From Cyanidioschyzon merolae (lineage: Eukaryota), in the NCBI GenBank assembly GCA_000091205.1, contig AP006496.2: DNA of 64,000 nucleotides; one strand, 5' to 3'. The position numbers were made by a program, and so were the translations under genes. The notes beneath the pieces were generated by a model that was not told where the DNA came from, did not search any database, and was given only the letters and a program-made list of their open reading frames with translations. Every line of letters begins with the position of its first letter. Positions within the stretch are counted from its first letter, which is position 1. Shown here piece after piece: positions 1 through 27,166 of this stretch.

Positions 1-1379
1 CCCCCCCCATTACAGCGATGATCCCAGCTCGAAAGCGTCTGTGATTTTGACGTCTTTCAATCCAGACTCGTTAGGGATTTTCCTTCGGTGGTACGGTCTG
101 AGCTCCTATGCATATGTCATTCTTTCCATCTAGCAAACTAGAGCCAATAGGGAATTATATCTGGCGCTATGATTTTTTTGGTCTTGCGGACTTGCCCACT
201 GGTAAGACCGGCGAAATTGCTGTATCGATACTGGTTTCGGGAAATCGTCCATCCCGCTGACCAGTTTCTTTCCCTTCCTCGCATTTGCTTTATCTCGGCT
301 GTGCTGATCGGTTCGGATATTGAACCCTGCGTCGCGTACCTGCCATGTGCATTCGCAGTGGCGTATCCGTCGCTGCTGCGGATGCAGTTTGGAAAGAGAG
401 CAGCGCTGGCGTACCACGGATTGCGTTGGAAATGGTGTGCTTCATGCAACATAGGTTCAAGGACGTTTATTTTCTAGGGAGCCTTCAAGTTGTTCTTGCA
501 GACCTTTTGCCTGCGGTAGCGGTAAGCGCTATACCATTTGTATACCGCAATCTAGGTGACTCTTTAGCGCAATATACCCACTCCTGGTTCAGAATCTCTA
601 CTTTTGCAGAGGAGGTGCTAAGGTGCGTCACATCACTCGCTACTGTATGGTCTCTCGGATTAGAGGTTGCGAGAGTCTCGCTGCTTGCCGACCCTCCGCC
701 AAAATTTCAGTGCTTGACCATACGCAAAGACTTCTTCCTTATACCGTCTACAGTAGGTGGCGTTAGTACTTGCTATTCCGTTCGTGTATATTATTTTTTT
801 TGTACTTTCCATATCGTGCGCCCTGCTAACGCATTGCGAACTCTGTCCGCCACTTCACTCCACGTTCCTGTTGCCGATCATGGGAAACGCGGTATTGACC
901 TGTTCTGGAGCGACTGCTCTTTCGGGGCCGCCTGCATTTGCGATCGAATTGTATCAAAGTATTGCTTTGGATTCAATGGCGTTTCTAACTTTCAGTATGT
1001 GTATTCTACTGATTTTCGCGTTCAAGGCAGAGGCGTCCGATGAGTTGTTCACTTAAAAAATGTCAGACATTTGTAATTGGAGGTAGTGGGTTTTGGGTGG
1101 CCGGTGTTGCCGGATGTCAGAAGGAAACGCGACATAGTGTCTAGCGAAGACGGTCAGGAAAGTAGAAGAAGCAACATGGTGAGGCCTTACATCGAAGGCT
1201 GCCATAGTGACGTCTGTGCGACGAGATGGTGGTGGAATCCTATATTCTTCAACATATCTATGACCCGTACGACTGATTGTTTCAAGACGCTATTAGAAAC
1301 CGCGTCGATTCGCACTCCAGGAATGCTTGTAAATCTTTTTTAGGAGGGACGCATTTGCAGATCGAGCAGCATCGCGACG

Positions 1380-3300
1380 TAACGCACATCGCAAAAGTGG
1401 TATTTCCGGAATAGTTTTTCAAAGAGAATTCTATCAACCACCTGATTTCTCCGAATAGGGAAGCATCAATGAGAAGAGAGCGGGCGGATGCCTACCTCAA
1501 AATTTACGAGAAATTCCGCGACAACGGTGCTGGACACAGGGGTGACGCAGATATTTACGAATACAGGGCAATGGGTTGCCTCACGAACGCGAGGAACCAA
1601 AAATTCTTAACCGTCATCTTTTCCATGAATGGCGCCCCCTTTGCCCTCTACGCGGGCCCGTTTCGCGAAGGGATGCGGCGAATCATCGATATTATCAGGA
1701 ACGATCGCCAGCATGAACAGGAGACCATATCCGTCGACAAGGTCATATCATGCTGGTTAACGAATGACGCTTCTCTTATCCGCGCCACTAGTTTAAAGCA
1801 TCGTCCGGTCTTGGGGCTTGTCAACCCATGAGAATTATTTTCAGATATGAGTAAAGACGAAGAGATTTGTTACACCCTCCTCATGTCCTACTCCATGCTT
1901 TTGGACCGAGAACTCGAACGCAAGGCCGAAATGGAGCTGAGTATGGATATAATGAATTGCTGGAGAAATGGCACTGAAGAGCTTCTCCTGTTGCGGTTTA
2001 TTTTTCGTCCGGTTATGCGAGTTCAAGTCACATTTTGTGAATATCGACTCTAGATTTCTTTACGCCGTCAAGAAAGAGATTTATCCAGTGCCCGATAGAA
2101 GCAACAAAGAGGTCACTGGCGAAGCCCGGGACACCTACTGGAAGAATAACTTCGATTGCAAGCGTCCGATACCGGCCAAAAGAAGGTATTCACGGGGGCC
2201 ATCGATGACGACGGGGTATACATATTGGTTCACTTTCAGCGGTTGCAGGCACTTCGTCCTATCCCGTCTCCGTTACCGCCCTTGCCAAAGCACGAAAACA
2301 AGACGAAAGGCCACCGGACGTATCGTCTACACGAGAACGACTTCGTCGTCGGCCTTTACTCCTGGAATACTGACGTGATTACCATCGCTGTACCCAAGCG
2401 TTCGGAAGATTTTACTGAATGTAGCTTACGTCAGAAAGACATGCGTCTTTTTCAGGTTCTCGAGATCGAGGTACTACCGAGAAGCGGGAATCATGAATCC
2501 GGGGAAGATAATTGAGACTTTAAATGCAGGAGTGAAAGAGTATCTGGAGGTTATGGGCGAGTTGACGAGCCGACGAGCGGACTCTCAGGCTTTTCGAGAA
2601 TTCATGGAGGTTCGTTTTGTCCACTGGGATTCGCTGTAGAAGAAGTGTAAAAGGCCCCGGTGGGCTAGTCTACCTATGAGTCCTTACTGTGGTAGGAAGC
2701 GTTCATTCGCGAACTTTTTCAATGCATTGAACGCCTCCAGGAGAATGAGAGTCAGTGGCTCATAGTAGCCTATGGGGCATGGAGCTGGGCTCCAAAAAGC
2801 GGACTACGCCAGCTTCGTCGACGAGGACATACAATGTGTGTGCACGGCGTTTTCTTACAATCCCTGTAGATGGGTTCCGAACATTGTGTACACACCATGC
2901 GCTGGGCTGTATACTTCAGAGAGTGGAGATGGAAAAGTGTCATCGCAGCCCTGGGGAATTAGCAAAGTACGGACCGCTGACGGAACTGCTAATGGAAAGA
3001 AGGGCGAAAGTTCCTGGACTACTTGCAATAGCAAGTATAACGAATGAGGGCAAGAAACGGATGGGGTTTGTAAATCGTGCCTTTGATGCCGCACTCAATT
3101 TCAGAAGAAGTGCGGTGCTGGAGAAAATACCTCCAGAGTCGACATGAGAGAACTTTGTTGGACAACCTCTCAAACTCGAACTATATGAGACAAGATTGGA
3201 AGCAGTGTAGGTGGCCGGTCCAAAAAGACGGGGGGCGTCTGCATAGCAATGGGAGACTTTATGCTAGGGCGGGCTTCTCGCCAATACTGTACACCGCTGG
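1380..3300 (+). mobile_element. Degenerate, 5'-truncated copy of the Fanzor/TnpB-like transposon (copy 0); single acidic repeat unit, RuvC-I motif decayed (GLYSWNTD)
   Basis: ORF 1469..1831 (YEYRAMGCLTNARNQ...ASLIRATSLKHRPVLGLVNP) aligns with the N-terminal protein of other copies (YKYRAMKYLTNLKNY...[20 protein letters not shown]). ORF 2156..2515 has KKVFTGAIDDDGV...LHENDFVVG...ITIAVPKR. ORF 2755..3147 has the RuvC C-terminal block (RFLTIPVDGFRT...KKRMGFVNRAFDAALNFRR). The 3' tail (gtcgacatgagagaactttgttgg...cgccaatactgtacaccgctggcg) matches the tails of other copies. Confidence 0.6.
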
Positions 3301-3830
3301 CGTCGTTCGAGTGTAAAAGGCGGTGGTGGCCTGGACGCTCGGACTCGTCGTCGGTGAGCACCAGACGTTTCCGAACAGTAGCCGAACAGTAGCCGAGCGG
3401 TTCCAAAGCACTGCACCAGTTGCCACAGGAGCGACGCCCAGGCACACGACCGGGTCTCGGGAAACGCTGCAGTTGCTGGTGTACGAGCCGGTGCGTACCC
3501 GCCGAGAACGAGCAGGTCATCTTGCGCTGTGATCCCGGCACTCGAAGTGCATTCAGGTCCAGGCAGCTATTACCTCCTGTGCCTGCACGCGCAGTATCGC
3601 CGTCGGAGCGTACGCACTGTCAAGCACGTCAAACGTTCAAAGAGCTAGCTAGTCGGCGAGTAGTTTACCTTCTTCAATCAAGCGCGGAGCAGCAGCGGCA
3701 GCGTCGAGCGCCTGCCTTTGACAGCGGCCTGTCCGCAGTCGACTGTACACGCCTAACCGCTGCCCCTGGTGACCCCCGAGGCGGGACACTTTGGTGATTC
3801 CCGGGCCGGCCGTACTCCCACGGACCTAAA

Positions 3831-5528
3831 ATGGCGCCTGCTGTCAAGCGAAGAGCCGCGGACGCCACCGCCGCTTCGCTACCCGCCTCGTCGCCGTCAG
3901 CTGAGCGTGTGCAGGCGGCAGACTTGGACGTCATGCATCAGGGCCGCACCAAAGAGGACACACCACAGCATGAGCACCCGGGCGCTGACCCGCAGAAACA
4001 ACAGGCATCACCACTCGAACGACTAGTGCTGCGCTCGACTGCGCACGTACGCGCGAACCCGGACGCCTGGCTCACGGGTGCGCTCGTGCTGCTTGGACTG
4101 TGGACGCGCCTCTACCGGATCCGCTGGCCACCCGAATGCGTCTTCGATGAGGTTCACTTTGCGTCGTTCGCACACCACTACCTCAACCGCACCTACTTCT
4201 TTGATATCCACCCGCCTCTGGCGAAGCTCACGCTGGCCGCAGTCGCGAAACTCGCTGGTGACGTCCCGAATCGCGACTGGTACGTCGACAAGGTCTACCC
4301 ACCAGACAGCCGGTACTATGCGATGCGCGCGTGCGCTGGCGTCTTCGGGGCGCTCCTGCCTCCGCTAGGCTTCCGCATCGCCCGCGGGATGGGTATGTCG
4401 CGGATCGCAGCCACTAGTGTGGGCGTGTTTCTGCTCTTCGACATGCTGAACCTGATCGAGGCGCGCCATATCCTCACGGACTCGCAGCTCATCTTCTACG
4501 CTGCGCTATGCATCGATGCGTTCGTGCGGCTGTGGCGCACGCCTCCAGCGAGCCGCGCTCGACGCTGGGCTGCTGTGCGCGCCGGCCTCGCGAGCGGTGC
4601 AGCGCTCTCAGTGAAGTGGACCACGCTCGTGGTGCCCGGCCTCTTCGGCCTCGAGTCGGTTGCCGGCGCTGCGCTCGCCGCCGAGCCGCTCGAGTGGAGC
4701 ACCTGCGCGATCGTCGCCGCAACAGCCCTGCTCTTGTACGTGGCGCTCTGGTACCCGCACTTTCGGATTCTGATCTATAATGGACCAGGCGGTGACTTTA
4801 TGAGCGCCGAGTTCCAGCGGACCCTCATTGGTCGCGACGGCTACGACCCGCAGGCCCGAAAGCCGCCTTTCCTCAAGCTCGTCTGGCAGCTCAACAAGGA
4901 GATGCTGCTGGCGAACGCGCGCATCCTCGATGAGCACCAGTGGCAAGCGCGCTGGCACACATGGCCATACGTAGGCCGTGGCCTCCTTTACTGGAATCGC
5001 TGGCAGGAGGGTACGTTGGATGCTGACGGGCGACCGCTGCGCCCGCATCACGCCATGCAGATCTATCTGATCGGGAATCCGCTGCTGTTCTGGATGTGCT
5101 TGGCAGCGGTGCTTGGTACAGTGGCGGCAATGCCGTTCTTGCTGCGCCTGATTCGCCAGCGGAAAAAGCGTGGAACGAGCACGGACGCATGGGAGCGCTA
5201 CCTGCGGCTGGCAACATTCCTTCTGCTTGGCTATGCGCTCGGCATTCTCCCGTACATGCCGATCCAGCGAAGTACGTTTATCTACCACTACCTGCCGTCG
5301 CTGTTGTTCGCGGAGCTGCTTTTTGCGCACGCGGTCCTCGATCTGCCGGCGCTACCGTCGGTGCTGCAGCTGCCGCTCGCCGGTATCGTCTGGATCGTTG
5401 TCTTCTGGTGCTTCTGGTACTTCCGCGCCTGGGTCTATGGACACATCGCGCTCACCGCCGACGACCATGAGGCCATGCGCTGGATCAAGTACACGTCCAG
5501 CGTAGGCGACAACAAGGGATGGCACTGA
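3831..5528 (+). CDS. Dolichyl-phosphate-mannose--protein O-mannosyltransferase (PMT, GT39 family), lacking the MIR loop
   Basis: 565-aa ORF with the PMT signature ECVFDEVHFASFAHHYLNRTYFFDIHPPLAKL (the DE motif of loop 1) and multiple TM segments. The loop-5-flanking motifs DFMSAEFQRTL and WHTWPYVGRGLLYW are directly adjacent with about 60 aa between them, so the roughly 190-aa MIR domain is missing. Codon usage is GC3-rich. Confidence 0.85.
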   Translation: MAPAVKRRAADATAASLPASSPSAERVQAADLDVMHQGRTKEDTPQHEHPGADPQKQQASPLERLVLRSTAHVRANPDAWLTGALVLLGLWTRLYRIRWPPECVFDEVHFASFAHHYLNRTYFFDIHPPLAKLTLAAVAKLAGDVPNRDWYVDKVYPPDSRYYAMRACAGVFGALLPPLGFRIARGMGMSRIAATSVGVFLLFDMLNLIEARHILTDSQLIFYAALCIDAFVRLWRTPPASRARRWAAVRAGLASGAALSVKWTTLVVPGLFGLESVAGAALAAEPLEWSTCAIVAATALLLYVALWYPHFRILIYNGPGGDFMSAEFQRTLIGRDGYDPQARKPPFLKLVWQLNKEMLLANARILDEHQWQARWHTWPYVGRGLLYWNRWQEGTLDADGRPLRPHHAMQIYLIGNPLLFWMCLAAVLGTVAAMPFLLRLIRQRKKRGTSTDAWERYLRLATFLLLGYALGILPYMPIQRSTFIYHYLPSLLFAELLFAHAVLDLPALPSVLQLPLAGIVWIVVFWCFWYFRAWVYGHIALTADDHEAMRWIKYTSSVGDNKGWH

Positions 5529-7556
5529 AAACGACGTTATGGGAATATGCAGGCGACACAGCTCAGCAGCGTGCCCTCGAAGGAGCGCCTCGAGTGCGCA
5601 GCGGCGTTGCCAGCGGGAAATTAACCGAGGCGCACGCATCGCGCGCGCCCATGCGTGTCACGGGCACGCACCTCGATGCGTGCATCGACACCCTTGACGC
5701 CTCCATGTGATCGAATCCGCTGGGGATGCGCATGTGTGCATGCTCCAAGTGCATTTGTGACGTGCGTGCCTCGAACGATCCTTGTTTGTGACGCCTGGTT
5801 GTGCATGTAACCGCTGGGAACGCATACGTGTTGTTCTTCCAAAGACATCCACTAGACGCAGGCCTGGAAAACGCATTTCCTAGGACTTGTAGGCAGCAAA
5901 GTGGCGTACTGTCGAGCACGTCGGCACTGGGAGCGTGCTCAGCGCACGCAATAGAGCGCACAGTCTCGACTGAGGTGAAGAGGCTTGCGTCATAGATTAG
6001 TTTGTGAACTCGAATCTCTTGGCGACTGGATGCGTGGACTTTACTGACTGGCAGCTGTCGCCCGTATGGGGGGCCACAGCGGGGTGCAAGCGTGACGCTA
6101 GAGTCGCTCGCTGAGAATGGACGCTACTGTATGCTCATCAGCAGGGCTCAGTGCGCCACGACTGGTGTGCAACGCCACCGAACGCGTTTTTCGTCATAAA
6201 GGGGCGGTGTCCGTGCATTGGTGTCTCGGATATAGCACCATCCGCAAGATGCATCGCGCGCGCTCCTCCGCATTCGGATGAGCAATCGCTTCTAGCCATG
6301 CTGTAGCAGCTGATGCGCTCGGTGAATGCACGGGAGTGCCGTCCATGCCAGCGCCATCTAGGTGTCCGCGCACGTCGGGGCCGATTCGCACTGCGATACC
6401 AGGTGGCTCCGTGGCTTCGCGTCCATCGGCCCGCCATCCAAACCACTGCACCTATAGACGACTCGGCATCGCTCCGCTTCTAGCACACCGCCACCTGCTC
6501 GTGCACCCACGTTCTTGGCTGATTCGATATGACCGCGCCACCTCCGGCTATGCTGTCCAGTACGCGCAATCTGATTCCGTTACAGCGCCGTGCGCTCAAG
6601 GGTAACGCACATAGACTCCGCCCGGACCCGGCATTGACATCGACGATGCCCTCACTCCGGAGCTGGATGGCGTCTGCGGCCAGGGCCGACACGCCATGGG
6701 TGCCGGCACCTGGAGGCGGCAGCCGTGTTCCCCGTTGAGCGTCACCTGCAATGCGTGCGGCCGTGCGGCATACGTATTCGAATGATGCAACAATCCCGCA
6801 GTCGGCAATTCCCGTCTAGTGGAAAGCATTCTAAATCCTATCAATTCCAGAGATGCGCAGGCGCCGAGTGCGCCCAGAATCCATACGCAAACGCATACAA
6901 AGCGTGATGCACGGCAATAGACGCCAAACGAATGTTCTAAGCCCTCTGCCGTTCAAACGTATGCTGCGCGGATCGCACAGACCGCAGCGGGCAGCGCCAG
7001 CAGTGCAGCCGCAGTGCAGCGACATCACTGCCGAGAGATAATGAACGCGATCAAGAGTCCTACGAGAACACCGCCAACCGTCGCTACACCCGTCAGCAAC
7101 ATAGTGACGTCAACCTGGTGCAGTGGGCCCACGTCCAGGAGGACCGGCTCACGTGCGCCTATCACGAGGAAGCCCGCTTGAGCCAAGGACATACCTGCCA
7201 GTGCGCTGCGGTCAAGCGACGCCCGCAGCTGCACAATCGCAGCCTGCGGGCGCCCAACACGGGACCCTTGCAGAGCACTCGAGCTCCGGTGTCTCTGCAG
7301 GACTTGCCCGAGCACCCACGCTCGTTTGCGATCTTGCAGGCTCGCCGGGTGCAGCGGTGTCCAGCGCCGAGGCAGCACCTGCGACAGCGGCGTTCGTTCG
7401 GCACCCGAAGCGAGCCTCTCGCCAACTACAGAGAAAGCATGCAGTTGCACAAAGGCCACGTCCACGGGCAGTACCCCGAGGCAACAGGACGCACTCGCTT
7501 CCCGACCCTTGCCGGCCGAGCAGCTCGTTGGCGCTGCCATAACAGAGGCCTCAGCA

Positions 7557-7603
7557 CGGTATCGGTATCGGCACTGGCACTGGCACCGGCACCGGCACCG
7601 CTG
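7557..7603. repeat. Compound microsatellite (CGGTAT)2(GGCACT)2(GGCACC)3
   Basis: Direct reading: cggtatcggtatcggcactggcactggcaccggcaccggcaccg. Followed at about 7690-7728 by a CATGCA-rich tract (gcatgcacgcatgcacgcacgcatgcatgcat). Confidence 0.8.
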
Positions 7604-8878
7604 CACACGCTTCACGGCAGTGTCCTATTCTGGGCCTGTTGTCGATCTGCGGGCGTAGCGCAGCACGCGTTGGCGACGCGCTGCACGGAGCGCATGCACG
7701 CATGCACGCACGCATGCATGCATACTGCGATCCATGCACTTGGGTGATGTTTCCAAGTTCAGCGCCCGTACCCGTAGTCTACGGGGTGTATCCATAGATA
7801 GATGCATGCGCAGGCATAGGCGCGTGCGTGTTCGTATGCGGATGGGCAACGGCTGTGTAAAGCACAGATCAGTGTCTAGCGCTGATTCGCATCTGTTTGC
7901 ATGTGCGGAACGCAATCGTTGGTGCCGCAGTCAACATCAACGCCGTCGCCGTGGATGCTTCGGTTACAGGTGCGTCGATCGCAGCGAGCCTTTATAAGGG
8001 CTGCCTTGCATCTCCGCGAAACGCAATTCACATGCCGCAGTAGTGTCATGGGAGCACGCATCGCGCGTGTGTGTGGATACAGTGACGTGTGGCGCTGCTA
8101 GAGGCTGCCTAGCCAACTGCCGCCAAATCCAATGGAATGCTGCATCATTGGGCAATGTCGCGTACACCATTCTGTCATTCCAGCAACAAGGTGCCTCATA
8201 GAATCTGCGGAACGTTCTGCTTCTGAATCCTGCTGCGCACACAGATGCACCGGTAGATACCCTGCACACTGCACACGCATCGTGCATGCACTTCTACCAG
8301 CGGATACGAGCAGCGTCGGCATTCACCGCCGAACCGGAGCATATTCTATGTGAATAAAGCGCCCACACCCTGATCACGAATCAGAGGCTGCAGCGCCACC
8401 CAGGTCGGCCGGGTCCAGCGTGACGCATTCGCTAGCCGATACGCGACTCGTGCTGCTCAGTTGCAGCTGCTCGTTGTGCAGCCCGCCTGCGCAAGTGCAA
8501 GTGCTGCACACTGTTGCGCTCACCGCCAGCACAGAGCGTCGCATCCGAGGGCGTCCGCGCAAGGCACACGACCCGTAGCGGCCGCCTGTCCCGACAAGGA
8601 CAGTCGCAAACCGCACGCTCGCCGATACTGATCTGTGAGCAATCACACAAGTGCAGGCTGTACAGTCTCGCAACGATCAGTCGATTGATGCGTGCCTCCA
8701 CGAGTCAGCGCAGAAGATTCTATCCACTTTCAGCAGTTTTATAGAGGATAGCACGATGCTCCAGGTGCGAGTCTATGGGATATCCGCATTATTATAGGCA
8801 ATGGCACGTATCTATACAGTTTACTCTGCATAAAACTTGAGTTTCTATTCCAGGTAACCCGAGCTCGCCCACTCGAGT

Positions 8879-9868
8879 TTATCTACCACCACCATGCCGT
8901 GATTCTGGCGCTGGGCCCTCAGAACGACTGCGCGCAGACTCCTCAGCGCGAAGGCGCAGCGCCTCTAGCAGCGCCTCCAGATCGTGCCGCCAGTCGCCCG
9001 CTGGTGGTGGCTCGATGCCAAACGCTGCGAACAGGGGACCAGCATCGCCGCGGCTGCGTCTCAGCGCAGTCGAAAGCGCCTCCAGCTGCTGCCGAAACGC
9101 GGCAGATTGCAGCACGCTCTCCAGGTCGATGCTGGATGGCAGGTACTCGCGGCACAGGGCAGCGGATGCAGGTCCGAGGCCCGGCTCGCGGAGAAGCCGC
9201 TCCAGCGCGGGGCCCCAGCGCAGAAGCGCCCCGAGGTCAGGCGTATCATCGGCGCGCGCCTGCGGCTGTCGACTTGCGTCATCCGCAGCATGCACAGCAT
9301 CGGAAGCAGCGCTGGCCCCCAGACGCTGCAGCGCGTCTACGAGCGACTGCCCAAGCGCGGCGGACGACGGACGCGTCGCGCCGTCAGGTACCTGCGAGCT
9401 GAGGCCTGGCCCAGGTCGGGACTCTGCGTCGCTGAGCCGCACCTCATCTGCGTGATCCAAGCCAGCAGGGTCGTCCAGGGGACGACACTCGAGCGCGTTG
9501 CGCAGCCGCTGTGCCAGCCGCACGTCCGCGTCGCAGCGAGGCTCTTGCAGCCAAAAGAACAGCTGTAGATCCGACGACGCAAAGCCCAAGACGAACATTC
9601 TACCAGTCCGGCAGGCGTGCACGCGCCGCCAGTTCGCGTCGCCGGGGAACACGATCAGGTCCTCCTCGATTGCACGGGTTGCGCGGTCGAGCCACTGGAA
9701 GTGCACGAGGCCGTCCGCGGCTCGCACGACACGGACGCAGCCCTTGCGGCCGTCCGAGTGCACCAAACCACTGTCCAGGTACGCGCGACCTGCGCGGAAC
9801 TCCACCAGTACCTGCTCTGGAAGTTCGTCCATCTGGCGTTCCAAGCTTGAAACACGGCCGTCCCGCAC
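8879..9868 (-). CDS. RPN13: Proteasome ubiquitin receptor Rpn13/ADRM1 (Pru domain plus C-terminal DEUBAD-like helical region)
   Basis: LVEFRAGRAYLDSG...LVHFQWLDRATRAIEEDLIVFPGDANWRRVHACRTGRMFVLGFASSDLQLFFWLQEP matches the Pru domain of ADRM1 (LVEFRAGKM...HFCWKDR...EDDLIIFPDDCEFKRV...[23 protein letters not shown]). The true start may be the Met of MDELPEQVLVEF at about 9832. Confidence 0.85.
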   Translation of the reverse strand: MRDGRVSSLERQMDELPEQVLVEFRAGRAYLDSGLVHSDGRKGCVRVVRAADGLVHFQWLDRATRAIEEDLIVFPGDANWRRVHACRTGRMFVLGFASSDLQLFFWLQEPRCDADVRLAQRLRNALECRPLDDPAGLDHADEVRLSDAESRPGPGLSSQVPDGATRPSSAALGQSLVDALQRLGASAASDAVHAADDASRQPQARADDTPDLGALLRWGPALERLLREPGLGPASAALCREYLPSSIDLESVLQSAAFRQQLEALSTALRRSRGDAGPLFAAFGIEPPPAGDWRHDLEALLEALRLRAEESARSRSEGPAPESRHGGGR

Positions 9869-10927
9869 ACCAAAGTCACACTCACTCCGAGCAGCAAGGC
9901 TCGACAGTCAGCCACGCGAAAGCCGGTGTAGCGCTCACGGCTTGTCCGGTCATGGACGCCGCACTAAAACGGCGGCAGTGGCACCAAGACCGAAACTGAT
10001 AATAAAAGCTACTCCACCGACAATGAAGTACACGCTAGACGGTGCAGCAGCTTGCACCGATACGAAACGTTCAGAAGTACTAGTAGAGGCGACACACGCC
10101 GCGCACGAACGAGGTCAGGCGCTCTGAATGCCGCTCCGGGCATCGAGCTGGGAGGCGCTGGCGCCGCCACTGGTGACTGCAACCCACGAAGGGCGCAGTT
10201 CACTCATGGGGCGCGTCTCGGGCCCCCCTGTGTGCCGTTGCACTGATGCCCGCACGTTGCAGCGCAAGACTTGGCGAAGCTGTATGACGAGCCGTGCATG
10301 ACACCTGACGGCGAGCATAGCGCAGCGGTCAAGCGGCTGCAGATTCCCGATACCAGAGCGCTCCGTCCAGGTCCCTGGTGTGTATCACAGCGACATGCTG
10401 CCCCCGAGGCTCTCGTAGACGCAGCGTGTGCGTGTCCGGTGCCTCTCGCATCCATGCGCATCACAGAGAAGCGCGAGTGATTGCCAGCGCACGCACATAG
10501 TACACGTGTCCAGTGCGTTGCTTCCGTATGCACACATCCCGAAAGCACCCCGAAAGGAAATCCAATTGTACCACGTGAACCGGTCTCGTTCACCGATACG
10601 CTCTGTTCGATACGCGAATGTATGAGCAGTACAGCGAACAACCACGAAATCAATGTGCTGTTACCAGCGATGTGGCATGAAAGCATCAGCGAGCACATTG
10701 ACCCCTGTGGAATCGCTTTGTCGGAATATTGCCCTGCACGGCTTGGCAGGATCGTCCACCACAGGAATCGCACCGTGCATGACGCTGGCGTTCCGTCGCC
10801 ATCGAACGCACCTGGTGTACTGCGAAACCACCTGCCTGGCATGTCTCTGTCGTATCAAGCAGCGCATCCATCAATGAGTGCGCAGCTATTCATCTGAAAC
10901 TCGCTGCCAGCAGGCCGGCATGCACGC

Positions 10928-11005
10928 CCCGTGCCGATCCCGTGCCGATCCCGTGCCGATCCCGTGCCGATCCCGTGCCGATCCCGTGCCAGTCCAGTGC
11001 CGATT
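10928..11005. repeat. 12-bp tandem repeat (CCCGTGCCGATC) x5 plus degenerate units, followed by an (AGC)n tract at about 11050-11090
   Basis: Direct reading: cccgtgccgatc repeated five times, then ccgtgccagtccagtgccgatt. About 250 bp upstream of the FTR1 start. Confidence 0.85.
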
Positions 11006-11260
11006 GGCGGCTGGCGTGCAGCATGCGCGTGCGCCATCAATATCGGAGGAAGCAGCACGAGCAGCAGCAGCAGTAGCGGTAGTCGTAGCGTCGTGGAACC
11101 CGCCAACTTGTTCTCCCGCTCATTCTTGCCCGTTGCAGAGGCACGTAGGCGTAGAGACTCACGTTAGGTCGTTTTCTGCAAAAGAACACACTCGGTGTTC
11201 TTAAAGTACTCTCACGGGCTTTTGCATACCATCCCCGACCGTGCTAGTCCTTGCTTTATC

Positions 11261-12841
11261 ATGGTACAGCTCTTCTCACTGGCAGGCTTTATCATTACGT
11301 TTCGCGAGATCCTCGAGGCCTGCATCGTGGTCTCGATCTGTCTGGCATAACTGCGGCGCACCAAGAATGAGCGCTACCTCAGAGACGTCTGGCTGGGCGT
11401 TGCAGCCGGCGTCGGTGTGCTCATCGTCATTGGAATCGCATTCGGCATCGTTTTCTGGACGCGCGGCCAGAAGCTGTATACGGGTCTCACTGAGCTGCTC
11501 TTCGAGGCCATTGTCCGACTGGTGGCGGTAGTGCTCATCACGTGGATGATCTTCTGGATGCTCAACACGGCCGCGCACATGCGCCGCGACCTCGAGGGCG
11601 GGATAGCGCGGGCGCTGTCGAGGCGCGGCCGATGGGGCGTTGCGCTGCTCGTCTTCACGTCCGTGCTGCGTGAGGGCGTCGAGCTCATCGTATTCCTGTT
11701 CGGAATCACGGGCGGTGTCTCGTGGAGCTCGATTCCCATCGCCGCAGCCGTCGGCGTGGCCGTTGCGCTGGTCGTCGCCTGGGCAATCTACCGCGGGGCG
11801 CTCGCCTTCGATCTGCGCCTCTTCTTCGCGCTCTCGTCGCTGCTGCTGATCGCATTCGCTGCGGGCTTCCTGTCGACGGCCTTCCTGGACCTCCAGAAAG
11901 CGAACCTGTTCGGGGCATTCACGCGCAACGGCAACGAGGACGAGTCGATTCCATCCACGCAGCGGCCGTGGTGGAATGCCGCGCTCTGGTCCACCGAGGC
12001 CTGCTGCGCGGACGACGGGAACGAGTTCTTCAACCTGCTGCACGAGCTCTTCGGATACGTGGATGCGCCGACCTTCGTCTCCACTGTCGTCTACTTCGGT
12101 TACTGGACCCTGGCTGGCGTGCTCTGGATCATCGTTGAGCGACGCACCCTGGAGCGCAAACTCTGCCAAATGCACACCGGGTACCTCGTATCGACTGCGT
12201 TCCTGGCGGTAGCTGCCGTGGTGGGGCTCGTCGTCGCCGCTCGCAGCCCGACATGGAACGGCATCCTGGTGACGTGCCTGACTCTGGTGCTGGCGATCAT
12301 CGGTGTAGGTGCCGCCAGCGCACCCCATGCAGCGCTACCGCCGCGTGCGCGTTTCGCCCTCCAGGGCTCCTGCTGGATAGGCCTCGTGCTGGTAGCGTGC
12401 CTGGCGCTGGCGCTGCAGGTTGCACAGGCGATCTGCTCGCCGCAGATTGGCGCGTCGCAGTACTGCTCTATCTCCGATTTCTACTATTGGTTCGTCATCT
12501 TCTCCCCGGACTGGATCGCAAAGACACGGGACGATAACAGCTTCCACGCGCTCGCGGTGCTTACCGTGTCGATATGCTTCACGATGCTGTTCTGCCTCGG
12601 ACAGGGCCTGGTCGGCTTCTACGAGTGGAAGCGTTCAGCGCTGGCGATGCAGCGTGCTGGACAAGCGCCAGCGGCTCTCGCCAAACAGGCGAATACATCC
12701 TCGGATCTGGAAGGCGGGAAATCCACGCCGCTCGATGACTCCTCGATCGATGAGCTTACCTGGGAAGCGCTCGATTCGACGCAGCCTCCGCAGCACGCGT
12801 CGCAGATCGAGATCTCGGCGAGACGGATGCTGGCGGATTGA
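11261..12841 (+). CDS. FTR1: FTR1-family high-affinity iron permease, interrupted by an in-frame TAA at 11348-11350 (codon 30); candidate pseudogene, readthrough or sequence error
   Basis: The ATG at 11261 gives MVQLFSLAGFIITFREILEACIVVSICLA*LRRTKNERYL... The same frame continues unbroken to 12841. It contains both FTR1 RExxE motifs (REILEAC in TM1, REGVELIVFLFGITGG in TM4) and about 7 TM segments. The TAA sits where FTR1 homologues have an aromatic or hydrophobic residue (TAT or TAC would give LAYLRRTK). The first in-frame ATG downstream is at about 11546, which would remove TM1. Confidence 0.75.
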
Positions 12842-13506
12842 ATCAGGGCGCAGCGCGGCACCAGGTCACCGCCGACGACTAGGCGGTACTCATAACAGCG
12901 AGCGCAATCCATGTGCAACGCGACGTATCGCACTTGCCGATTCAAAGAGAATGACAGCGCCTGTGGTTACCCGTCGCGGAGCCGTTCGCATGGTGATAGC
13001 GTCGGCATCACCTGACACCCACTCCGTGGCGCTATGGTGCTTTGCCAAGAACGCGCCCCTGGTTGCCACAGCGTTGCGTACCAGCGAATGGATCATGCGT
13101 CGAGCGCTGCTCTGGTGCGATCATAGACAAGTTCACGTCGAATACTTTGCGCACCGCTGTACCGCATACCGATGACTCGTCTAGCATGCACTGCTACCGT
13201 ACAGTAAAGAACGCTCGTGCAATGCGTATCCCGTTTCTCGCTATCCTGAAAGACAACGGCTCCTCGAGCACACAATATCTCAGCATGCAGGAGTCGAGAC
13301 GCTCTCATCAAGCAGCGCAGCGGCTCCAGCGCCCTGCACGATTGCCCGACGAAACGCCTGGGGCGCGCCCCGATCAAATACCCGAGACACGCCATGCGCG
13401 GGAAACCTGGGGCAGTACTGTTTCGCCTGCAAGTAGGAGGGTGCACTCAAGTGATATCCAGAACTTCCCGCAGCGTGGACACGAGTGCCAACAGGTCGCT
13501 TCAAGT

Positions 13507-14421
13507 ATGCCAGACGAGATCGCTCAAGTTCGTTTTCTGATAGTCGGACGCACCGGTTGGATCGCCAACATGGTTGCAGAGCTACTTGAGCAGCGCGGTG
13601 AGCGGTACGCGTTTGCGAGCTTCCGTCTCGAGCAGCGCGAGGCCTGTGAGCGCGAACTGGACGCGCTGCGCCCACAGCGGGTCCTGAACTGTGCTGGGGT
13701 CACTGGGCGTCCGAACGTCGACTGGTGCGAGGACCACCGGCGCGAGACCGTCCGCAGTAACGTACTGGGCGTGCTGAACCTGGCGGACTGCTGCGCGTCG
13801 CGCGGGATCCACCTCACCAACTTTGCTACCGGCTGTCTATACCACTACGACGACGGCGAGCACCGGCCGACGGCTGAGGGCGGCAGACCCTTCACGGAGG
13901 ACGATCCGCCGAACTTTTTCGGTAGCTACTACAGTCGCACCAAGGCCATGGTGGAGGAGCTGCTGCGCAGCGCTTTTGACAATGTGCTCATCCTGCGACT
14001 GCGCATGCCCGTGAGCGACGACCTGTCGCCGCGCAGCTTTGTCACGAAAATCGCACGCTACGAAAAGGTTGTGAATATCCCCAACAGCATGACGGTTTTG
14101 ACGGAGCTGCTGCTAGTGGCACTGGATATGAGCGAGCGCGGCCTTACGGGCGTGTACAACTTTACCAATCCGGGTAGCATCTCGCATAACGAGGTCCTGG
14201 AGCTTTACAGAAAATATATCGATCCAAAGTTCCAATGGAAGAACTTTACGCTCGAGGAGCAGGCAAAAATCCTCAAGGCCGGCCGCTCCAACTGCGAGCT
14301 CGACGTCCGCAAACTGCTGCGGGACAATCCCGGTGCCCAGATCCGCGAGGTCCACGCCGCCATGGAGGAGGTCTTTCGGCGCATGCAGGCGAAGGGTGTC
14401 AAGCCGCTGGCTGCGCCCTAG
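13507..14421 (+). CDS. UDP-4-keto-6-deoxy-D-glucose 3,5-epimerase/4-reductase (NRS/ER, UER1-type; second half of UDP-L-rhamnose synthesis)
   Basis: FLIVGRTGWIANMVAELL (N-terminal Rossmann GxxGxxG-like motif) and NCAGVTGRPNVDWCEDHRRETVRSNVLGVLNLADCC...YSRTKAMVEELL (the YxxxK of the SDR extended family). Overall collinear with plant NRS/ER and the RHM C-terminal domain. The longer ORF 13042..14421 has a non-homologous N-terminal extension, so the start is placed at the ATG at 13507. Confidence 0.85.
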   Translation: MPDEIAQVRFLIVGRTGWIANMVAELLEQRGERYAFASFRLEQREACERELDALRPQRVLNCAGVTGRPNVDWCEDHRRETVRSNVLGVLNLADCCASRGIHLTNFATGCLYHYDDGEHRPTAEGGRPFTEDDPPNFFGSYYSRTKAMVEELLRSAFDNVLILRLRMPVSDDLSPRSFVTKIARYEKVVNIPNSMTVLTELLLVALDMSERGLTGVYNFTNPGSISHNEVLELYRKYIDPKFQWKNFTLEEQAKILKAGRSNCELDVRKLLRDNPGAQIREVHAAMEEVFRRMQAKGVKPLAAP

Positions 14422-15631
14422 TATAGCACCGCAGGTGGCGTACTTTGCGGCAAAACGGTTACGCACCGAGTGACGGGTCGATGGCGTGCGCTCCCAGGGA
14501 CGACTCGCTTTGCGTGCAGGGAAGCGACTGCGACTGCAGGCGCGCTAGCACAATCCTGCACTGGGCGAAAGGAACGGAAGCGTCATTGGCACCAGGGCAC
14601 TTATTGCCGTGTAAGGCACCTTTCGACGCGGACCTCAAGGCTGACTGCGAGGCGTTCTGGAAAGACTTGCTCCGATAGGCTAGCTCCGCTGTGGCATCCG
14701 CTACAGGCGAAATCGGATACCGGGATGATCCAACTGCAGCGCCCTTCTAATAGTGATCCGTGTAAATGACGCAAGCTTCTGAAGAGAGTACATCAAAGTG
14801 GCGCAGGCATTTGTTCCTGGCGTTCATGTGTGCCTTCGAATGCAGCATCCAGGGGCCTGCAGGCATTGGCTGGACGACTGCCTGCTAGCAGCGGTCAGGA
14901 TTACAGGGATCCAAGGGACTCGATACGTGCATACGTGCATTACTGCATTCGTGCATGCTTCCATACGTAAAAACGTGTGAATGCTGGTGAGCACTGCGCG
15001 AATATGTGCACGCGCGCACGCTGCAGCATGGGAACACAGCGTTCTCGCCACGCTCTGGCTGGGATGTCTGAGCGATGGGAACGTGCTGTCGATGCTGCCA
15101 CATAAGCAGAGTCCGTCAAGGCCGACACGCTCGAGACAGCGCTCATGAATTGCATAGTGGAGCGGATTCACGTGCGCGAACACAGGAACGAACACACAAA
15201 CAAGTCCTAGTGGCAAGGCGAGTTTCAACAGATCCCCGAAAGCGCCCACACTCCGTACCTGCCAGCAACATCACTGTCGGTCGCTATCGCGCTGCTGCCC
15301 ACAGCGCGAATGATGCACACATATCTCCTTGGATTCATGCCGCCAGCCTCTGTGTTGATCCTTCTGCCCTACACCATGATGGAAGCGCGCGATCCACAGA
15401 GTGCGCGCGCAATCGCCGCCCGCCGCATCAGCGATGCGTGCGCGGTGGCGACGCTGCTGCCGCCATCATCGGTCGCATACCTGGGACACGTGTCTCGCTA
15501 GAGATGGATCCTGTTGAAACAGAAACGCGCGCCACGATCGTGGCGTTACCGCCTGTGCAGGCAGAGCGCGGAAGTAGCCGGTGCGTGTGGTTGTGTGTGT
15601 CCGAGTCGAAAGGCGCACGTTGGCAAAATAA

Positions 15632-16762
15632 ATGTCCTCGCAGAGCACGGCGCTTTCGAACGGTGCCAAGTCGGTAACCGGTGGACAGCCCGACGGGAAC
15701 TCGGACGCGCTGGTCGTCTACGGCGACCGTCTGCGCTTCGTGCCGCGGAATATCCTTGTGACTGGCGGTGCCGGCTTTATTGCCTCGCACGTTGTCGAAC
15801 GGCTCGTGAGTCGATATCCCCATTACCGCGTGACGGTACTGGACAAGCTCGACTACTGCTCGTCGCTGAGCAACCTCGCGCAGGTGGCAAACCGACCAAA
15901 CTTCAAGTTTATTCGCGGCGATATCCGCTCGCATGACCTGGTGCTCTACGTGCTCCAGGAGGAGTGCATCGATACAGTGCTCCACTTTGCGGCGTGCACG
16001 CACGTCGACAACTCGTTCACGTCCTCGATCCTGTTTACGGAGAACAACGTGCTGGGAACGCACGTCCTCCTGGAGTGCGCACGCCAGTACGGCAAAGTGC
16101 GGCGCTTCATTCACGTCAGCACCGATGAGGTGTACGGCGGCGAGAGCAACATGGAGACAGAGTCATCGATCCTGGCACCCACGAACCCGTACGCATGTAG
16201 CAAGGCCGCCGCCGAATTCATTTGCCGCGGCTACGTCAAGTCGTTCGGATTGCCGGTGATCATCACACGCGGCAACAACGTGTACGGGCCGCACCAGTTC
16301 CCCGACAAGCTCATTCCCAAGAGTATCTGTCTGCTGGCGCAACGCCGGCCCTGCTTTGTACACGGCTCTGGTGAGCATGCACGCAACTTTTTGTACGTCG
16401 AGGACGCGGCGAGCGCCTTTGACACCATCCTGCATTGTGGCGAGACCGATGAGGTCTACAATGTAGGCTCTGAGATCGAGAAACGCAACATTGACGTTGT
16501 GCACGACATTATCGATCTCTTCGGCCTGTCTGCCGAGGCGAACCGCCACATCGAGTTTGTCAAAGATCGCACCCTCAACGATATGCGCTACAGGATCGAC
16601 TCGTCGAAGCTGCATGCGCTTGGCTGGAGGCCGCAGGTGTCCTGGGAAGAGGGCCTGCGCCGAACCAAGACCTGGTACTGTGATCCGAATAACCTGAAGC
16701 GCTGGCCGAATTATCTCAGTGGCCTCGTACCGCATCCGAGTCTCACCGAGGAGAAGCACTAG
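15632..16762 (+). CDS. UDP-glucose 4,6-dehydratase (RHM N-terminal-domain type; first step of UDP-L-rhamnose synthesis)
   Basis: ILVTGGAGFIASHVVERL (GxxGxxG), YRVTVLDKLDYCSSLSNL, HFAACTHVDNSF, STDEVYG and YACSKAAAEFICRGY (YxxxK) are the dTDP/UDP-glucose 4,6-dehydratase hallmarks. Same strand as NRS/ER, 1.2 kb downstream. Confidence 0.9.
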   Translation: MSSQSTALSNGAKSVTGGQPDGNSDALVVYGDRLRFVPRNILVTGGAGFIASHVVERLVSRYPHYRVTVLDKLDYCSSLSNLAQVANRPNFKFIRGDIRSHDLVLYVLQEECIDTVLHFAACTHVDNSFTSSILFTENNVLGTHVLLECARQYGKVRRFIHVSTDEVYGGESNMETESSILAPTNPYACSKAAAEFICRGYVKSFGLPVIITRGNNVYGPHQFPDKLIPKSICLLAQRRPCFVHGSGEHARNFLYVEDAASAFDTILHCGETDEVYNVGSEIEKRNIDVVHDIIDLFGLSAEANRHIEFVKDRTLNDMRYRIDSSKLHALGWRPQVSWEEGLRRTKTWYCDPNNLKRWPNYLSGLVPHPSLTEEKH

Positions 16763-17904: not shown

Positions 17905-17918
17905 AGAATTGGGAACTA

Positions 17919-26981: not shown

Positions 26982-27166
26982 ACATGAGAGAACTTTGCTG
27001 GACAGCCTCTGAAAGTTGAACTATATGAGAACAAGTTGTAAGCAGTAGTGGGTGGCCGGTCCAAAAAGTCTGGGAGGCGTCTACACGTCAGTTAAAGATT
27101 TTTTGTCGAGGGCGCGGTTGCCGCCACTACTTTTTCTGCCGACCGCAGCGCAATTAAAACTACTCT

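What the first reader, a model, noticed from the sequence alone, without database searches (positions are those of the whole stretch)
3831..5528. Eukaryotic-context PMT homologue without the MIR domain
All characterised eukaryotic PMT1, PMT2 and PMT4 subfamily members carry three MIR motifs (about 190 aa) in lumenal loop 5. Here the loop-5 flanking motifs are both present (DFMSAEFQRTLIGRDGY upstream, ARWHTWPYVGRGLLYW downstream) but only about 60 residues separate them, as in actinobacterial Pmt. The gene is otherwise eukaryote-like: a long Ala/Pro-rich N-terminal tail and genomic context between TE and Rpn13. One explanation is a MIR-less PMT lineage in this eukaryote. Another is horizontal acquisition from high-GC bacteria. 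Either would be unusual.
Basis: partly seen in the sequence, partly recalled or inferred. Interest (0 to 1): 0.5.

Follow-up and report, generated by a model that had tools for sequence, protein, structure and literature searches.

The report
Red-alga mannosyltransferase lacking MIR domain
This is the already annotated, multi-copy chromosome-end gene of the red alga Cyanidioschyzon merolae for a protein O-mannosyltransferase that naturally lacks the MIR domain; red algae and several other protists share this form, and it has been reported before, so it is real but not new.

Summary
Window 3831-5528(+) is an intact 565-aa ORF with the Pfam domains PMT and PMT_4TMC and no MIR domain. About 205-216 residues of yeast Pmt1/Pmt4 are replaced by 2-12 residues here.

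The protein is 100% identical to Cyanidioschyzon merolae 10D BAM80644.1/BAM81152.1, annotated [quoted passage not shown]. The window starts at a telomere unit. Its first ~17 kb matches the published subtelomeric element that carries the M, I, R and D genes (Nozaki 2007).

C. merolae has three near-identical copies of this "A-type" gene and one "B-type" paralog, all without MIR. MIR-less homologues occur across red algae, and in Cyanophora, Ancoracysta and Anaeramoeba.

In my neighbour-joining trees the gene falls in a clade of red algal and eukaryote-context sequences (bootstrap 73%). That clade contains none of the 36 bacterial sequences and lies far from Actinobacteria and from the MIR-bearing clade. 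GC3 matches the neighbouring genes, dN/dS is about 0.1, and the catalytic and donor-binding residues are conserved.

Recent transfer from high-GC bacteria and misassembly are therefore not supported. Red-algal GT39 genes (2013) and their MIR-less architecture (2021) are already in the literature. Whether they were retained or anciently transferred is still open. Interest is low.

The parts
1..11 (.). Telomere-type unit CCCCCCCCATT, the reverse complement of AATGGGGGGGG. It shows that the window starts at a chromosome end.
   Evidence: Sequence read. The C. merolae telomere repeat is AATGGGGGG according to PMC1955436.
2401..3206 (.). Degenerate copy of a dispersed repeat family upstream of the gene.
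   Evidence: Repeat families D7 and D9 and inverted pairs I12, I18 and I20 are 68-79% identical to copies at 26.2-26.9, 30.0-30.7, 34.9-35.2, 46.2-46.5 and 58.0-58.4 kb. The ORFs have no Pfam hit. It is probably the 253-copy interspersed element described in PMC1955436; that link is inferred.
3831..5528 (+). Complete CDS of 565 aa plus stop codon: an A-type MIR-less GT39 protein O-mannosyltransferase homologue. It is identical to C. merolae 10D BAM80644.1/BAM81152.1.
   Evidence: dN/dS is 0.09-0.11 against Cyanidiococcus-type orthologues.
3831..4010 (+). N-terminal Ala-rich tail (aa 1-60), predicted disordered and presumably cytosolic.
   Evidence: pLDDT is below 50 for aa 1-41. The tail is poorly conserved in Cyanidiococcus and Cyanidium.
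4083..4649 (+). PMT domain (aa 85-273), covering TM1-TM6 and lumenal loop 1.
   Evidence: Pfam PF02366, E 2.3e-37.
4146..4157 (+). D106-E107-V108-H109. These correspond to the proposed catalytic base D80, to E81 and to the acceptor-positioning H83 of yeast Pmt4.
   Evidence: Alignment to 9e61_A, with residue roles taken from PMC12586580. The positions are nearly invariant among 49 homologues.
4827..4868 (+). The 14-residue linker (aa 333-346) at the position where PMT1/2/4 enzymes carry the MIR beta-trefoil of about 205-216 aa.
   Evidence: alignments to Pmt1, Pmt2 and Pmt4; this segment is 213-328 residues long in MIR-bearing sequences and mostly 12-17 in MIR-less ones.
4869..5489 (+). PMT_4TMC domain (aa 347-553). 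It comprises helix HH4 with H369, a beta-hairpin at aa 385-390 and 407-413 that holds an insertion of about 16 aa, and TM8-TM11 with R480, Y485 and H486.
   Evidence: Pfam PF16192, E 1.4e-35; secondary structure of the model; alignments.
8879..9868 (-). Rpn13/ADRM1 proteasome subunit gene, a eukaryotic neighbour.
   Evidence: Pfam PF04683, E 9e-28.
11417..12841 (+). FTR1 iron permease gene, the 'I' gene of the published subtelomeric element.
   Evidence: Pfam PF03239, E 9e-35; PMC1955436 Figure 3 legend.
13042..14421 (+). RmlD-like reductase gene, the 'R' gene (dTDP-4-dehydrorhamnose reductase).
   Evidence: Pfam PF04321, E 6e-17; PMC1955436.
15632..16762 (+). NDP-sugar 4,6-dehydratase gene, the 'D' gene (dTDP-glucose 4,6-dehydratase).
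   Evidence: Pfam PF16363, E 1e-68; PMC1955436.

Best explanation
The ORF is one of three near-identical subtelomeric copies of the 'A-type' GT39 gene of Cyanidioschyzon merolae 10D. It is native to the red-algal lineage, under purifying selection, and predicted to be catalytically competent.

Inferred mechanism. It is an ER-membrane GT-C enzyme with 11 transmembrane helices. It takes mannose from dolichyl-phosphate-mannose and transfers it with inversion to Ser/Thr hydroxyls of translocating proteins. D106 would act as the base. H109 and H369 would position the acceptor. H127, K262, R480 and H486 would hold the donor phosphate.

Because there is no MIR beta-trefoil, only the groove above the membrane domain (helices HH1-HH4 and the beta-hairpin) can select the acceptor, as proposed for bacterial Pmt. 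The second, MIR-mediated S/T-X-S/T recognition site described for yeast Pmt4 is absent.

What is shown: the domain architecture, fold, residue conservation, lineage placement, copy number and selective constraint.

What is inferred: the enzymatic activity, the donor, the ER location, and any dimer formation (A-A or A-B).
For: - Identity and annotation: 100% identical to BAM80644.1/BAM81152.1. A third copy, BAM82295.1, differs at 8 residues.
- Published context: telomere unit at window position 1 and the gene order M-I-R-D, as in Nozaki 2007.
- Family: PMT plus PMT_4TMC by Pfam. Yeast Pmt2, Pmt1 and Pmt4 match at E about 1e-34.
- Fold: model pLDDT 86.4. Foldseek finds C. thermophilum Pmt4 at E 4e-22 (TM-score 0.72 by query, 0.82 by target), then ScPmt4, Pmt1 and Pmt2.
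- Active site: ScPmt4 D80, E81, H83, H101, K241, H563, R659 and H665 are all conserved, as D106, E107, H109, H127, K262, H369, R480 and H486. Most are invariant or nearly so among 49 homologues.
- Constraint: dN/dS 0.09-0.11 against orthologues.
- Lineage: best hits outside the Cyanidiales A-type are two unnamed sequences (P0005, sister to Porphyridium in the trees, and P0092), Galdieria and the Cyanidium B-type, at 288-292 bits. The best bacterial-type hit scores about 212 bits and the best MIR-type hit about 188 bits.
- Tree: the gene sits in a 43-sequence clade (bootstrap 73%) that holds all named red algal sequences and four contigs with eukaryotic neighbour genes, and none of the 36 bacterial sequences.
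- Profile scores: red-algal 481 bits, bacterial 364 bits, MIR-type 346 bits.
- Composition: GC3 equals that of the neighbouring genes.
Against: - No biochemical evidence for O-mannosylation in any red alga was found in the literature searched. PMC3797821 says explicitly that the activity is unknown.
- One of the five donor-phosphate ligands of ScPmt4, H664, is Tyr here (Y485). This is also the state in almost all of the 49 MIR-less homologues aligned.
- The trees are distance-based (neighbour joining), with 59-73% support at the deciding nodes. Deep relationships among red algal, other eukaryotic, bacterial and MIR-type groups are unresolved. An ancient bacterial origin of the whole red-lineage clade therefore cannot be excluded.
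- Subtelomeric multi-copy genes are sometimes dispensable.
Confidence: 0.75

Rival explanations
1. Recent horizontal acquisition from high-GC (actinobacterial) bacteria. On this view the gene looks bacterial because it is bacterial, and it landed in a plastic subtelomere.
For: The architecture (PMT plus 4TMC, no MIR) is the same as in bacterial Pmt (PMC12331936). The location is subtelomeric. Cyanidiophyceae are known to carry transferred genes that were amplified in subtelomeres (PMC9812998). PMC8147084 favoured independent transfers for MIR-less eukaryotic PMTs.
Against: The best prokaryotic matches reach only 28-35% identity and are mainly Patescibacteria and Dehalococcoidia, not Actinobacteria. 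The Pseudonocardiaceae sequences lie in the bacterial part of the tree, and no bacterial sequence is in the gene's clade. A red-algal profile outscores the bacterial one by 117 bits. GC3 matches the eukaryotic neighbours. Orthologues exist in three Cyanidiales genera with saturated dS of 1.2-1.4, so the gene is old in this lineage.
Confidence: 0.03
2. A single ancient transfer from bacteria into an early red-algal (or Archaeplastida) ancestor, followed by vertical descent, A/B duplication and spread to other algae through endosymbiosis. The MIR-less state is then bacterial by descent, not the ancestral eukaryotic state.
For: PMT genes have a patchy distribution in eukaryotes, and Viridiplantae are reported to lack GT39 (PMC3797821). 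In the trees the red-lineage clade, the other MIR-less eukaryotes, the bacteria and the MIR clade are not resolved relative to each other (bootstraps of 1-20% at those nodes). The clade is monophyletic and contains no bacteria (bootstrap 73%), which fits a single origin.
Against: No bacterial sister group to the red-lineage clade was identified. MIR-less forms are also found in Cyanophora, Ancoracysta and Anaeramoeba, which would need further transfers or an older origin. The published Bayesian PMT tree recovered eukaryotic PMTs as monophyletic (PMC4973528).
Confidence: 0.3
3. A GT39-fold enzyme with a different job: it transfers mannose or another sugar from a polyprenyl phosphate donor to a non-protein acceptor, or to a very narrow protein target. 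It would then not be a general protein O-mannosyltransferase.
For: The activity has never been measured in red algae. H664 is replaced by Tyr. Three of the neighbours in the duplicated block are an iron permease and two NDP-sugar enzymes, which might hint at a specialised surface-glycan function. C. merolae 10D is described as lacking a cell wall (PMC13353863 abstract).
Against: The acceptor-groove histidines and the catalytic DE motif, which contact the peptide in yeast Pmt4, are conserved. Bacterial MIR-less members with the same Tyr are bona fide protein O-mannosyltransferases (PMC12331936).
Confidence: 0.12
4. A misassembly, an internal deletion specific to this assembly, or a decaying subtelomeric pseudogene.
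For: Subtelomeres are prone to assembly errors and to gene decay.
Against: The genome is the finished telomere-to-telomere 10D sequence (PMC1955436). There is an identical second copy and a third copy with 8 differences. The same short loop is seen in Cyanidiococcus, Cyanidium and the metagenome-derived relatives aligned. The ORF is intact, dN/dS is about 0.1, and the model is confident.
Confidence: 0.01

Closest known systems
C. merolae 10D proteins BAM80644.1/BAM81152.1 (XP_005536680.1/XP_005537188.1), 'similar to dolichyl-phosphate-mannose:protein mannosyltransferase'. This is the 'M' gene of the subtelomeric elements in Nozaki et al. 2007.
   Same: Identical over all 565 residues. The telomere-proximal position and the neighbouring I, R and D genes also match.
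   Different: Nothing. It is the same gene.
Red-algal GT39 proteins: the Cyanidiales B-type (C. merolae BAM82455.1, Cyanidiococcus KAF6001784.1, Cyanidium KAK4537800.1), Galdieria, Porphyridium, Chondrus and Gracilariopsis.
   Same: PMT plus PMT_4TMC with no MIR, and the same short linker. They share a clade in the NJ tree (bootstrap 73%).
   Different: Only 34-43% identical to the A-type. The C. merolae B-type is on chromosome 18 (record of 1,253,087 bp) and only one copy was found. Its beta-hairpin insertion is much longer. The A-type was seen only in Cyanidioschyzon, Cyanidiococcus, Cyanidium and close metagenomic relatives.
Bacterial Pmt, for example Mycobacterium tuberculosis MtPMT (Rv1002c) and Corynebacterium glutamicum Pmt.
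   Same: The architecture is the same: a core of 11 transmembrane helices with no MIR in the loop between TM7 and TM8, so acceptor selection must rest on the membrane-domain groove and the C-terminal part of that loop (PMC12331936). The Tyr at the position of ScPmt4 H664 is shared.
   Different: Identity is 28-35%. The gene does not branch with any bacterial group sampled. The genomic context is eukaryotic. The donor is presumably dolichyl phosphate rather than a bacterial polyprenyl phosphate (inferred).
Opisthokont PMT1, PMT2 and PMT4 subfamilies: yeast Pmt1-7 and human POMT1/2 (PDB 6P25, 9E61, 9I5K).
   Same: The transmembrane fold matches (TM-score 0.72-0.74 normalised by the query). The catalytic DE motif, both groove histidines and four of the five phosphate ligands are conserved.
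   Different: There is no MIR beta-trefoil. The gene lies outside the MIR-bearing clade, which has 100% bootstrap. H664 is replaced by Tyr. The cross-protomer dual-site recognition through MIR described for Pmt4 (PMC12586580) cannot operate.

Membership tests
GT39 / PMT family (dolichyl-phosphate-mannose-protein mannosyltransferases in the broad sense) | N-terminal PMT domain (PF02366) above the Pfam gathering score | tested here: met
   129.3 bits against a cut-off of 22.7, aa 85-273.
GT39 / PMT family (dolichyl-phosphate-mannose-protein mannosyltransferases in the broad sense) | C-terminal four-helix PMT_4TMC domain (PF16192) | tested here: met
   123 bits against a cut-off of 32.4, aa 347-553.
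GT39 / PMT family (dolichyl-phosphate-mannose-protein mannosyltransferases in the broad sense) | GT-C fold with 11 transmembrane helices, superposable on solved PMT structures | tested here: met
   AF2 model with pLDDT 86.4. Foldseek matches 9i5k_A at E 4e-22 (TM-score 0.72 by query, 0.82 by target), and also 9e61 and 6p25.
GT39 / PMT family (dolichyl-phosphate-mannose-protein mannosyltransferases in the broad sense) | Asp-Glu motif in lumenal loop 1 (ScPmt4 D80/E81) and the acceptor-groove histidines (H83, H563) | tested here: met
   D106, E107, H109 and H369. Residue roles are from PMC12586580.
GT39 / PMT family (dolichyl-phosphate-mannose-protein mannosyltransferases in the broad sense) | Five basic residues that coordinate the donor phosphate (ScPmt4 H101, K241, R659, H664, H665) | tested here: inconclusive
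   Four are conserved (H127, K262, R480, H486). H664 is Tyr (Y485), as in nearly all of the 49 MIR-less homologues aligned.
GT39 / PMT family (dolichyl-phosphate-mannose-protein mannosyltransferases in the broad sense) | Measured transfer of mannose from Dol-P-Man to Ser/Thr of proteins | not testable with these tools
PMC3797821 states that the activity is unknown in red algae.
Eukaryotic PMT1, PMT2 and PMT4 subfamilies | MIR beta-trefoil domain (PF02815, three MIR motifs) in the lumenal loop between TM7 and TM8 | tested here: not met
   No MIR hit at E<=1. The 205-216 aa stretch is absent in alignments to Pmt1 and Pmt4. No MIR is encoded in the flanking ORFs.
Eukaryotic PMT1, PMT2 and PMT4 subfamilies | Phylogenetic placement inside the PMT1/2/4 clade | tested here: not met
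   The MIR-bearing clade has 100% bootstrap and excludes the window protein.
Eukaryotic PMT1, PMT2 and PMT4 subfamilies | Obligate homo- or heterodimer | not tested
   No multimer model was made. The co-occurrence of A and B paralogs in the three Cyanidiales genera is only suggestive.
Bacterial (actinobacterial-type) Pmt | PMT plus 4TMC architecture without MIR | tested here: met
Bacterial (actinobacterial-type) Pmt | Descent from or within a bacterial clade | tested here: not met
   None of the 36 bacterial sequences is in its clade, and the Pseudonocardiaceae sequences are distant. The bacterial profile scores 117 bits less than the red-algal profile.
C. merolae subtelomeric homologous element carrying the M-I-R-D genes (Nozaki 2007) | Adjacent to a telomere repeat and carrying the genes for the mannosyltransferase, iron permease, dTDP-4-dehydrorhamnose reductase and dTDP-glucose 4,6-dehydratase | tested here: met
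   Telomere unit at positions 1-11. Pfam identifies the four genes in this order. Figure 3 legend of PMC1955436. Copies on other chromosomes are inferred from identical and near-identical proteins on records of 859,119 bp (chromosome 12) and 1,232,258 bp (chromosome 17).

The most novel reading that the evidence does not exclude
MIR-less PMTs are not scattered bacterial imports. On this reading they are an old, vertically inherited eukaryotic family: the ancestral form of the enzyme, retained in red algae, glaucophytes, Ancoracysta, Anaeramoeba and algae with red-derived plastids. The MIR insertion would then be a later novelty of the opisthokont line. In Cyanidiales the family split into A and B paralogs. 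These could act as a heterodimer, analogous to Pmt1-Pmt2 or POMT1-POMT2, with the A partner amplified at chromosome ends.
Probability: 0.25. Interest if true: 0.45.

Novelty: already known. Interest (0 to 1): 0.15.

Why it matters
The finding has little value as a discovery. The gene is annotated, it is drawn in the 2007 chromosome-end map, it was listed as red-algal GT39 in 2013, and the MIR-less architecture in red algae was pointed out in 2021.

Some value remains in the open question stated in those papers: whether red algae retained or acquired these enzymes, and whether protein O-mannosylation exists outside opisthokonts and bacteria.

The data gathered here argue against scattered recent transfers. 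They show one eukaryote-only clade covering all sampled red algal classes, plus further MIR-less forms in three other protist lineages. C. merolae is genetically tractable (PMC13353863, PMC8504449), so it would be a practical organism for testing how a eukaryotic PMT works without a MIR domain.

Tried and rejected
- The exact-sequence look-up of the window protein in the contig index failed twice. The identity came instead from cluster members.
- NCBIfam gave no hit.
- I looked for a transposase or reverse transcriptase in the upstream 'TE' and in the other repeat copies. There was no Pfam hit, so it is called only a dispersed repeat.
- I looked for a separately encoded MIR domain in the ORFs between the gene and Rpn13. 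None was found.
- I considered that the high GC marks a foreign gene. This is rejected because GC3 is equally high in the neighbouring subtelomeric genes.
- I considered a C. merolae-specific deletion of MIR. This is rejected because all orthologues and both paralog types have the short loop.
- A first 190-sequence NJ tree gave only 61% support for the eukaryote-only clade. A better aligned 116-sequence set gave 73%. Deep nodes stayed unresolved. No maximum-likelihood program was available.
- One papers search failed on syntax, and one Pfam call failed on a bad frame.
- The hosts of the unnamed eukaryotic contigs (P0018, P0027 and others) could not be identified.
Full report
**Observation.** Window 3831-5528(+) is an intact ATG-initiated ORF of 565 codons. 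Pfam finds the PMT domain (PF02366, aa 85-273, E 2.3e-37) and PMT_4TMC (PF16192, aa 347-553, E 1.4e-35). Nothing resembling MIR appears even at E<=1, and NCBIfam finds nothing.

They are 34 residues apart, not about 60.

phmmer against solved structures hits yeast Pmt2, Pmt1 and Pmt4 and C. thermophilum Pmt4 at E about 1e-32 to 1e-34, each in two stretches. Query 333 pairs with Pmt1 315 and query 346 with Pmt1 532. Query 332 pairs with Pmt4 322 and query 335 with Pmt4 528. The MIR beta-trefoil of about 205-216 residues is therefore replaced by a linker of 2-12 residues.

An AlphaFold2 model built on 49 homologues (pLDDT 86.4, pTM 0.86) shows 11 transmembrane helices. In the TM7-TM8 loop it has only short horizontal helices and a two-stranded hairpin. 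Foldseek matches it best to Pmt4, Pmt1 and Pmt2 (E 4e-22 to 5e-18, TM-score 0.71-0.74 normalised by the query).

**Source and context.** The protein is identical over all 565 residues to P0076, which is BAM80644.1/BAM81152.1 (XP_005536680.1/XP_005537188.1) of Cyanidioschyzon merolae 10D, annotated [quoted passage not shown]. A third copy, BAM82295.1, differs at 8 positions.

The window begins with CCCCCCCCATT, a unit of the C. merolae telomere repeat AATGGGGGG (PMC1955436). Downstream lie:
- Rpn13 (8879-9868, minus strand),
- an FTR1 iron permease (11417-12841),
- an RmlD-like reductase (13042-14421),
- an NDP-sugar 4,6-dehydratase (15632-16762).

Apart from Rpn13, these genes together with the mannosyltransferase are exactly the set "D, R, I and M" that the Figure 3 legend of Nozaki et al. 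2007 lists for the homologous DNA elements next to the telomeres. The records that carry the copies are 859,119 bp (chromosome 12) and 1,232,258 bp (chromosome 17) long.

It has no recognisable transposase. It is probably the 253-copy interspersed element of Nozaki 2007; that link is inferred.

The orthologues in Cyanidiococcus and in a related metagenomic contig also lie 6.6-6.9 kb from a contig end.

**Is the missing MIR an artefact?** No. Cyanidiococcus (74% identity by BLASTP), Cyanidium (65%), a JGI relative (84%) and the variants in the 53-member cluster that are about 99% identical all have the same short loop. In a 190-sequence alignment the linker segment is mostly 13-15 residues long in the gene's clade. 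It is 213-328 residues long in MIR-bearing proteins.

dN/dS against the Cyanidiococcus-type orthologues is 0.09-0.11, with dS of 1.2-1.4. No MIR is encoded in the ORFs between the gene and Rpn13.

**Paralogs.** C. merolae 10D has a second, divergent GT39 gene, BAM82455.1 (582 aa, on chromosome 18). It too has only PMT plus PMT_4TMC. Cyanidiococcus and Cyanidium each have both types. No MIR-bearing PMT from any red alga appeared in two large searches.

**Distribution and phylogeny.** Named MIR-less relatives come from:
- Galdieria (four species), Porphyridium (two genes), Chondrus, Gracilariopsis and Agarophyton, plus a transcriptome entry whose organism label is cut off after 'Rhod';
- the glaucophyte Cyanophora (three genes);
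- Ancoracysta and Anaeramoeba;
- a record labelled Symbiodinium.

Four unnamed metagenomic relatives sit beside clearly eukaryotic genes such as PRP8, CSN8, Arf, SWIB/DEK and CpeS.

The nearest prokaryotic genes are mainly from Patescibacteria and Dehalococcoidia, with a few from Myxococcota and Pseudonocardiaceae. All are 28-35% identical.

The exhaustive HMMER search ranks two unnamed sequences, Galdieria and the Cyanidium B-type at 288-292 bits (P0005, sister to Porphyridium in the trees, and P0092). Sequences that cluster with bacteria reach about 212 bits at best, and MIR-type sequences about 188 bits.

I built neighbour-joining trees from 116 sequences (L-INS-i alignment, 451 columns, Scoredist and Kimura distances, 200 bootstraps). 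They give:
- 100% support for the Cyanidiales A clade, the Cyanidiales B clade and the MIR-bearing clade;
- 73% support for a 43-sequence clade that unites the A clade with all named red algal sequences and the eukaryote-context contigs. None of the 36 bacterial sequences lies inside it.

Cyanophora, Anaeramoeba and Ancoracysta fall outside that clade, among unresolved deep branches. Profiles built from each group score the window protein at 481 bits (red-algal non-A), 364 (bacterial), 346 (MIR-type) and 335 (other protists).

GC3 of the gene (0.77) is like that of its subtelomeric neighbours (0.71-0.81), while genes further in have 0.56-0.65. Recent acquisition from high-GC bacteria is therefore not supported. 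A single ancient transfer into the red lineage remains possible, because the deep nodes are unresolved and only distance methods were available.

**Mechanism.** I mapped the residues described for yeast Pmt4 (PMC12586580) through the alignment:

| ScPmt4 residue | Role | Window protein |
|---|---|---|
| D80 | proposed catalytic base | D106 |
| E81 | second residue of the Asp-Glu motif | E107 |
| H83, H563 | sandwich the acceptor Thr | H109, H369 |
| H101, K241, R659, H665 | donor phosphate ligands | H127, K262, R480, H486 |
| H664 | donor phosphate ligand | Y485 |

The Tyr at 485 is the state in almost all of the 49 MIR-less homologues aligned.

The most likely function is therefore an inverting, Dol-P-Man-dependent protein O-mannosyltransferase of the ER membrane. 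It would select acceptors only through the groove above the membrane domain, as proposed for M. tuberculosis Pmt (PMC12331936). It cannot use the MIR-mediated second recognition site described for Pmt4.

Relative to yeast Pmt1, the A-type hairpin carries a 16-residue insertion (aa 391-406). The activity, the donor, the location and any dimerisation are all inferred. No red-algal O-mannosylation data were found.

**Comparison with the literature and verdict.**
- The gene is in the 2007 subtelomere map (PMC1955436).
- Ulvskov et al. 2013 reported GT39 orthologues in G. sulphuraria and C. merolae and left open whether they were retained or transferred (PMC3797821). They counted one C. merolae sequence, whereas the protein records show four genes of two types.
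- A 2021 review noted PMT-4TMC proteins without MIR in Galdieria and read them as independent transfers from bacteria (PMC8147084).

The added value here is modest: the gene is identified exactly, the A/B paralog structure and copy number are clarified, the bacterial-donor idea is tested and not supported, and the MIR-less eukaryotic forms prove more widespread and more coherent than "independent LGT" implies.

Noticed in passing
window 1-16762: The window starts at a telomere unit. Its first ~17 kb corresponds to the published C. merolae subtelomeric element with the genes M (3831-5528), I (11417-12841), R (13042-14421) and D (15632-16762). Rpn13 (8879-9868, minus strand) lies between M and I but is not in the gene list of the Nozaki 2007 figure legend.
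   Followed up: partly
window 2401-3206, 24593-27131, 29967-30802, 34646-37147, 45935-47817, 57929-60562: A dispersed repeat family, 68-98% identical between copies and present in both orientations. It occupies the low-GC stretches of the window. Its ORFs (260-385 aa) have no Pfam hit. It is probably the 253-copy, ~3.2 kb interspersed element with a WSV486-like ORF described for C. merolae.
   Followed up: partly
window 25667-26266: A tandem array with a 75-nt period (copies 62-79% identical to the reference) inside one copy of the dispersed repeat. Related sequence is seen at 35597-35971.
   Followed up: no
window 52017-52244: A perfect tandem duplication of 114 nt (2 x 38 codons), just upstream of the 1771-aa ORF at 52558-57873 (minus strand).
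   Followed up: no
window 37384-38304: An ORF of 306 aa with a P-type Trefoil domain (PF00088, E 3e-7). Trefoil-factor genes are another gene class that Nozaki 2007 lists at chromosome ends, but this one is 37 kb from the end and next to a repeat copy.
   Followed up: no
window 3831-19052 compared with 27167-57873: GC3 is higher in the telomere-proximal genes (0.68-0.81) than in genes further in (0.56-0.71). This is a regional composition gradient and is not specific to the PMT gene.
   Followed up: partly
L083 6642-8276 (Cyanidiococcus), L081 6934-8388 (JGI contig): The A-type orthologues also sit 6.6-6.9 kb from a contig end, but the downstream neighbours differ from the window (UFD1, and in L081 also a Gln-synt_C gene, instead of Rpn13 and FTR1). 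The chromosome-end position seems conserved while the flanks are not.
   Followed up: partly
window 5001-5048 (aa 391-406); P0360 aa ~397-443: The beta-hairpin of the TM7-TM8 loop carries a 16-residue insertion relative to yeast Pmt1 in the A-type, conserved in Cyanidiococcus and Cyanidium. The C. merolae B-type has a much longer insertion at the same place. Mycobacterial Pmt is reported to have a 9-residue insertion between the same strands, in a segment implicated in acceptor choice.
   Followed up: no
window 5283-5285 (Y485): ScPmt4 H664, one of the five proposed donor-phosphate ligands, is Tyr here and in nearly all of the 49 MIR-less homologues aligned (consensus FLYHYLP; the yeast Pmt1, Pmt2 and Pmt4 sequences aligned here have HHYLP). 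This may be a sequence marker that separates the two architectures.
   Followed up: partly
L086 8001-10193, L087 3662-5854, L088 2347-4038: A well-supported subclade (bootstrap 99%) of MIR-less PMTs comes from unidentified eukaryotes with compact genomes. The contigs reach 336-406 kb and carry neighbours such as Arf, PRP8 and CSN8. Some members have N-terminal extensions of 150-270 aa, and one cluster contains a record labelled Symbiodinium. The hosts could not be named.
   Followed up: partly
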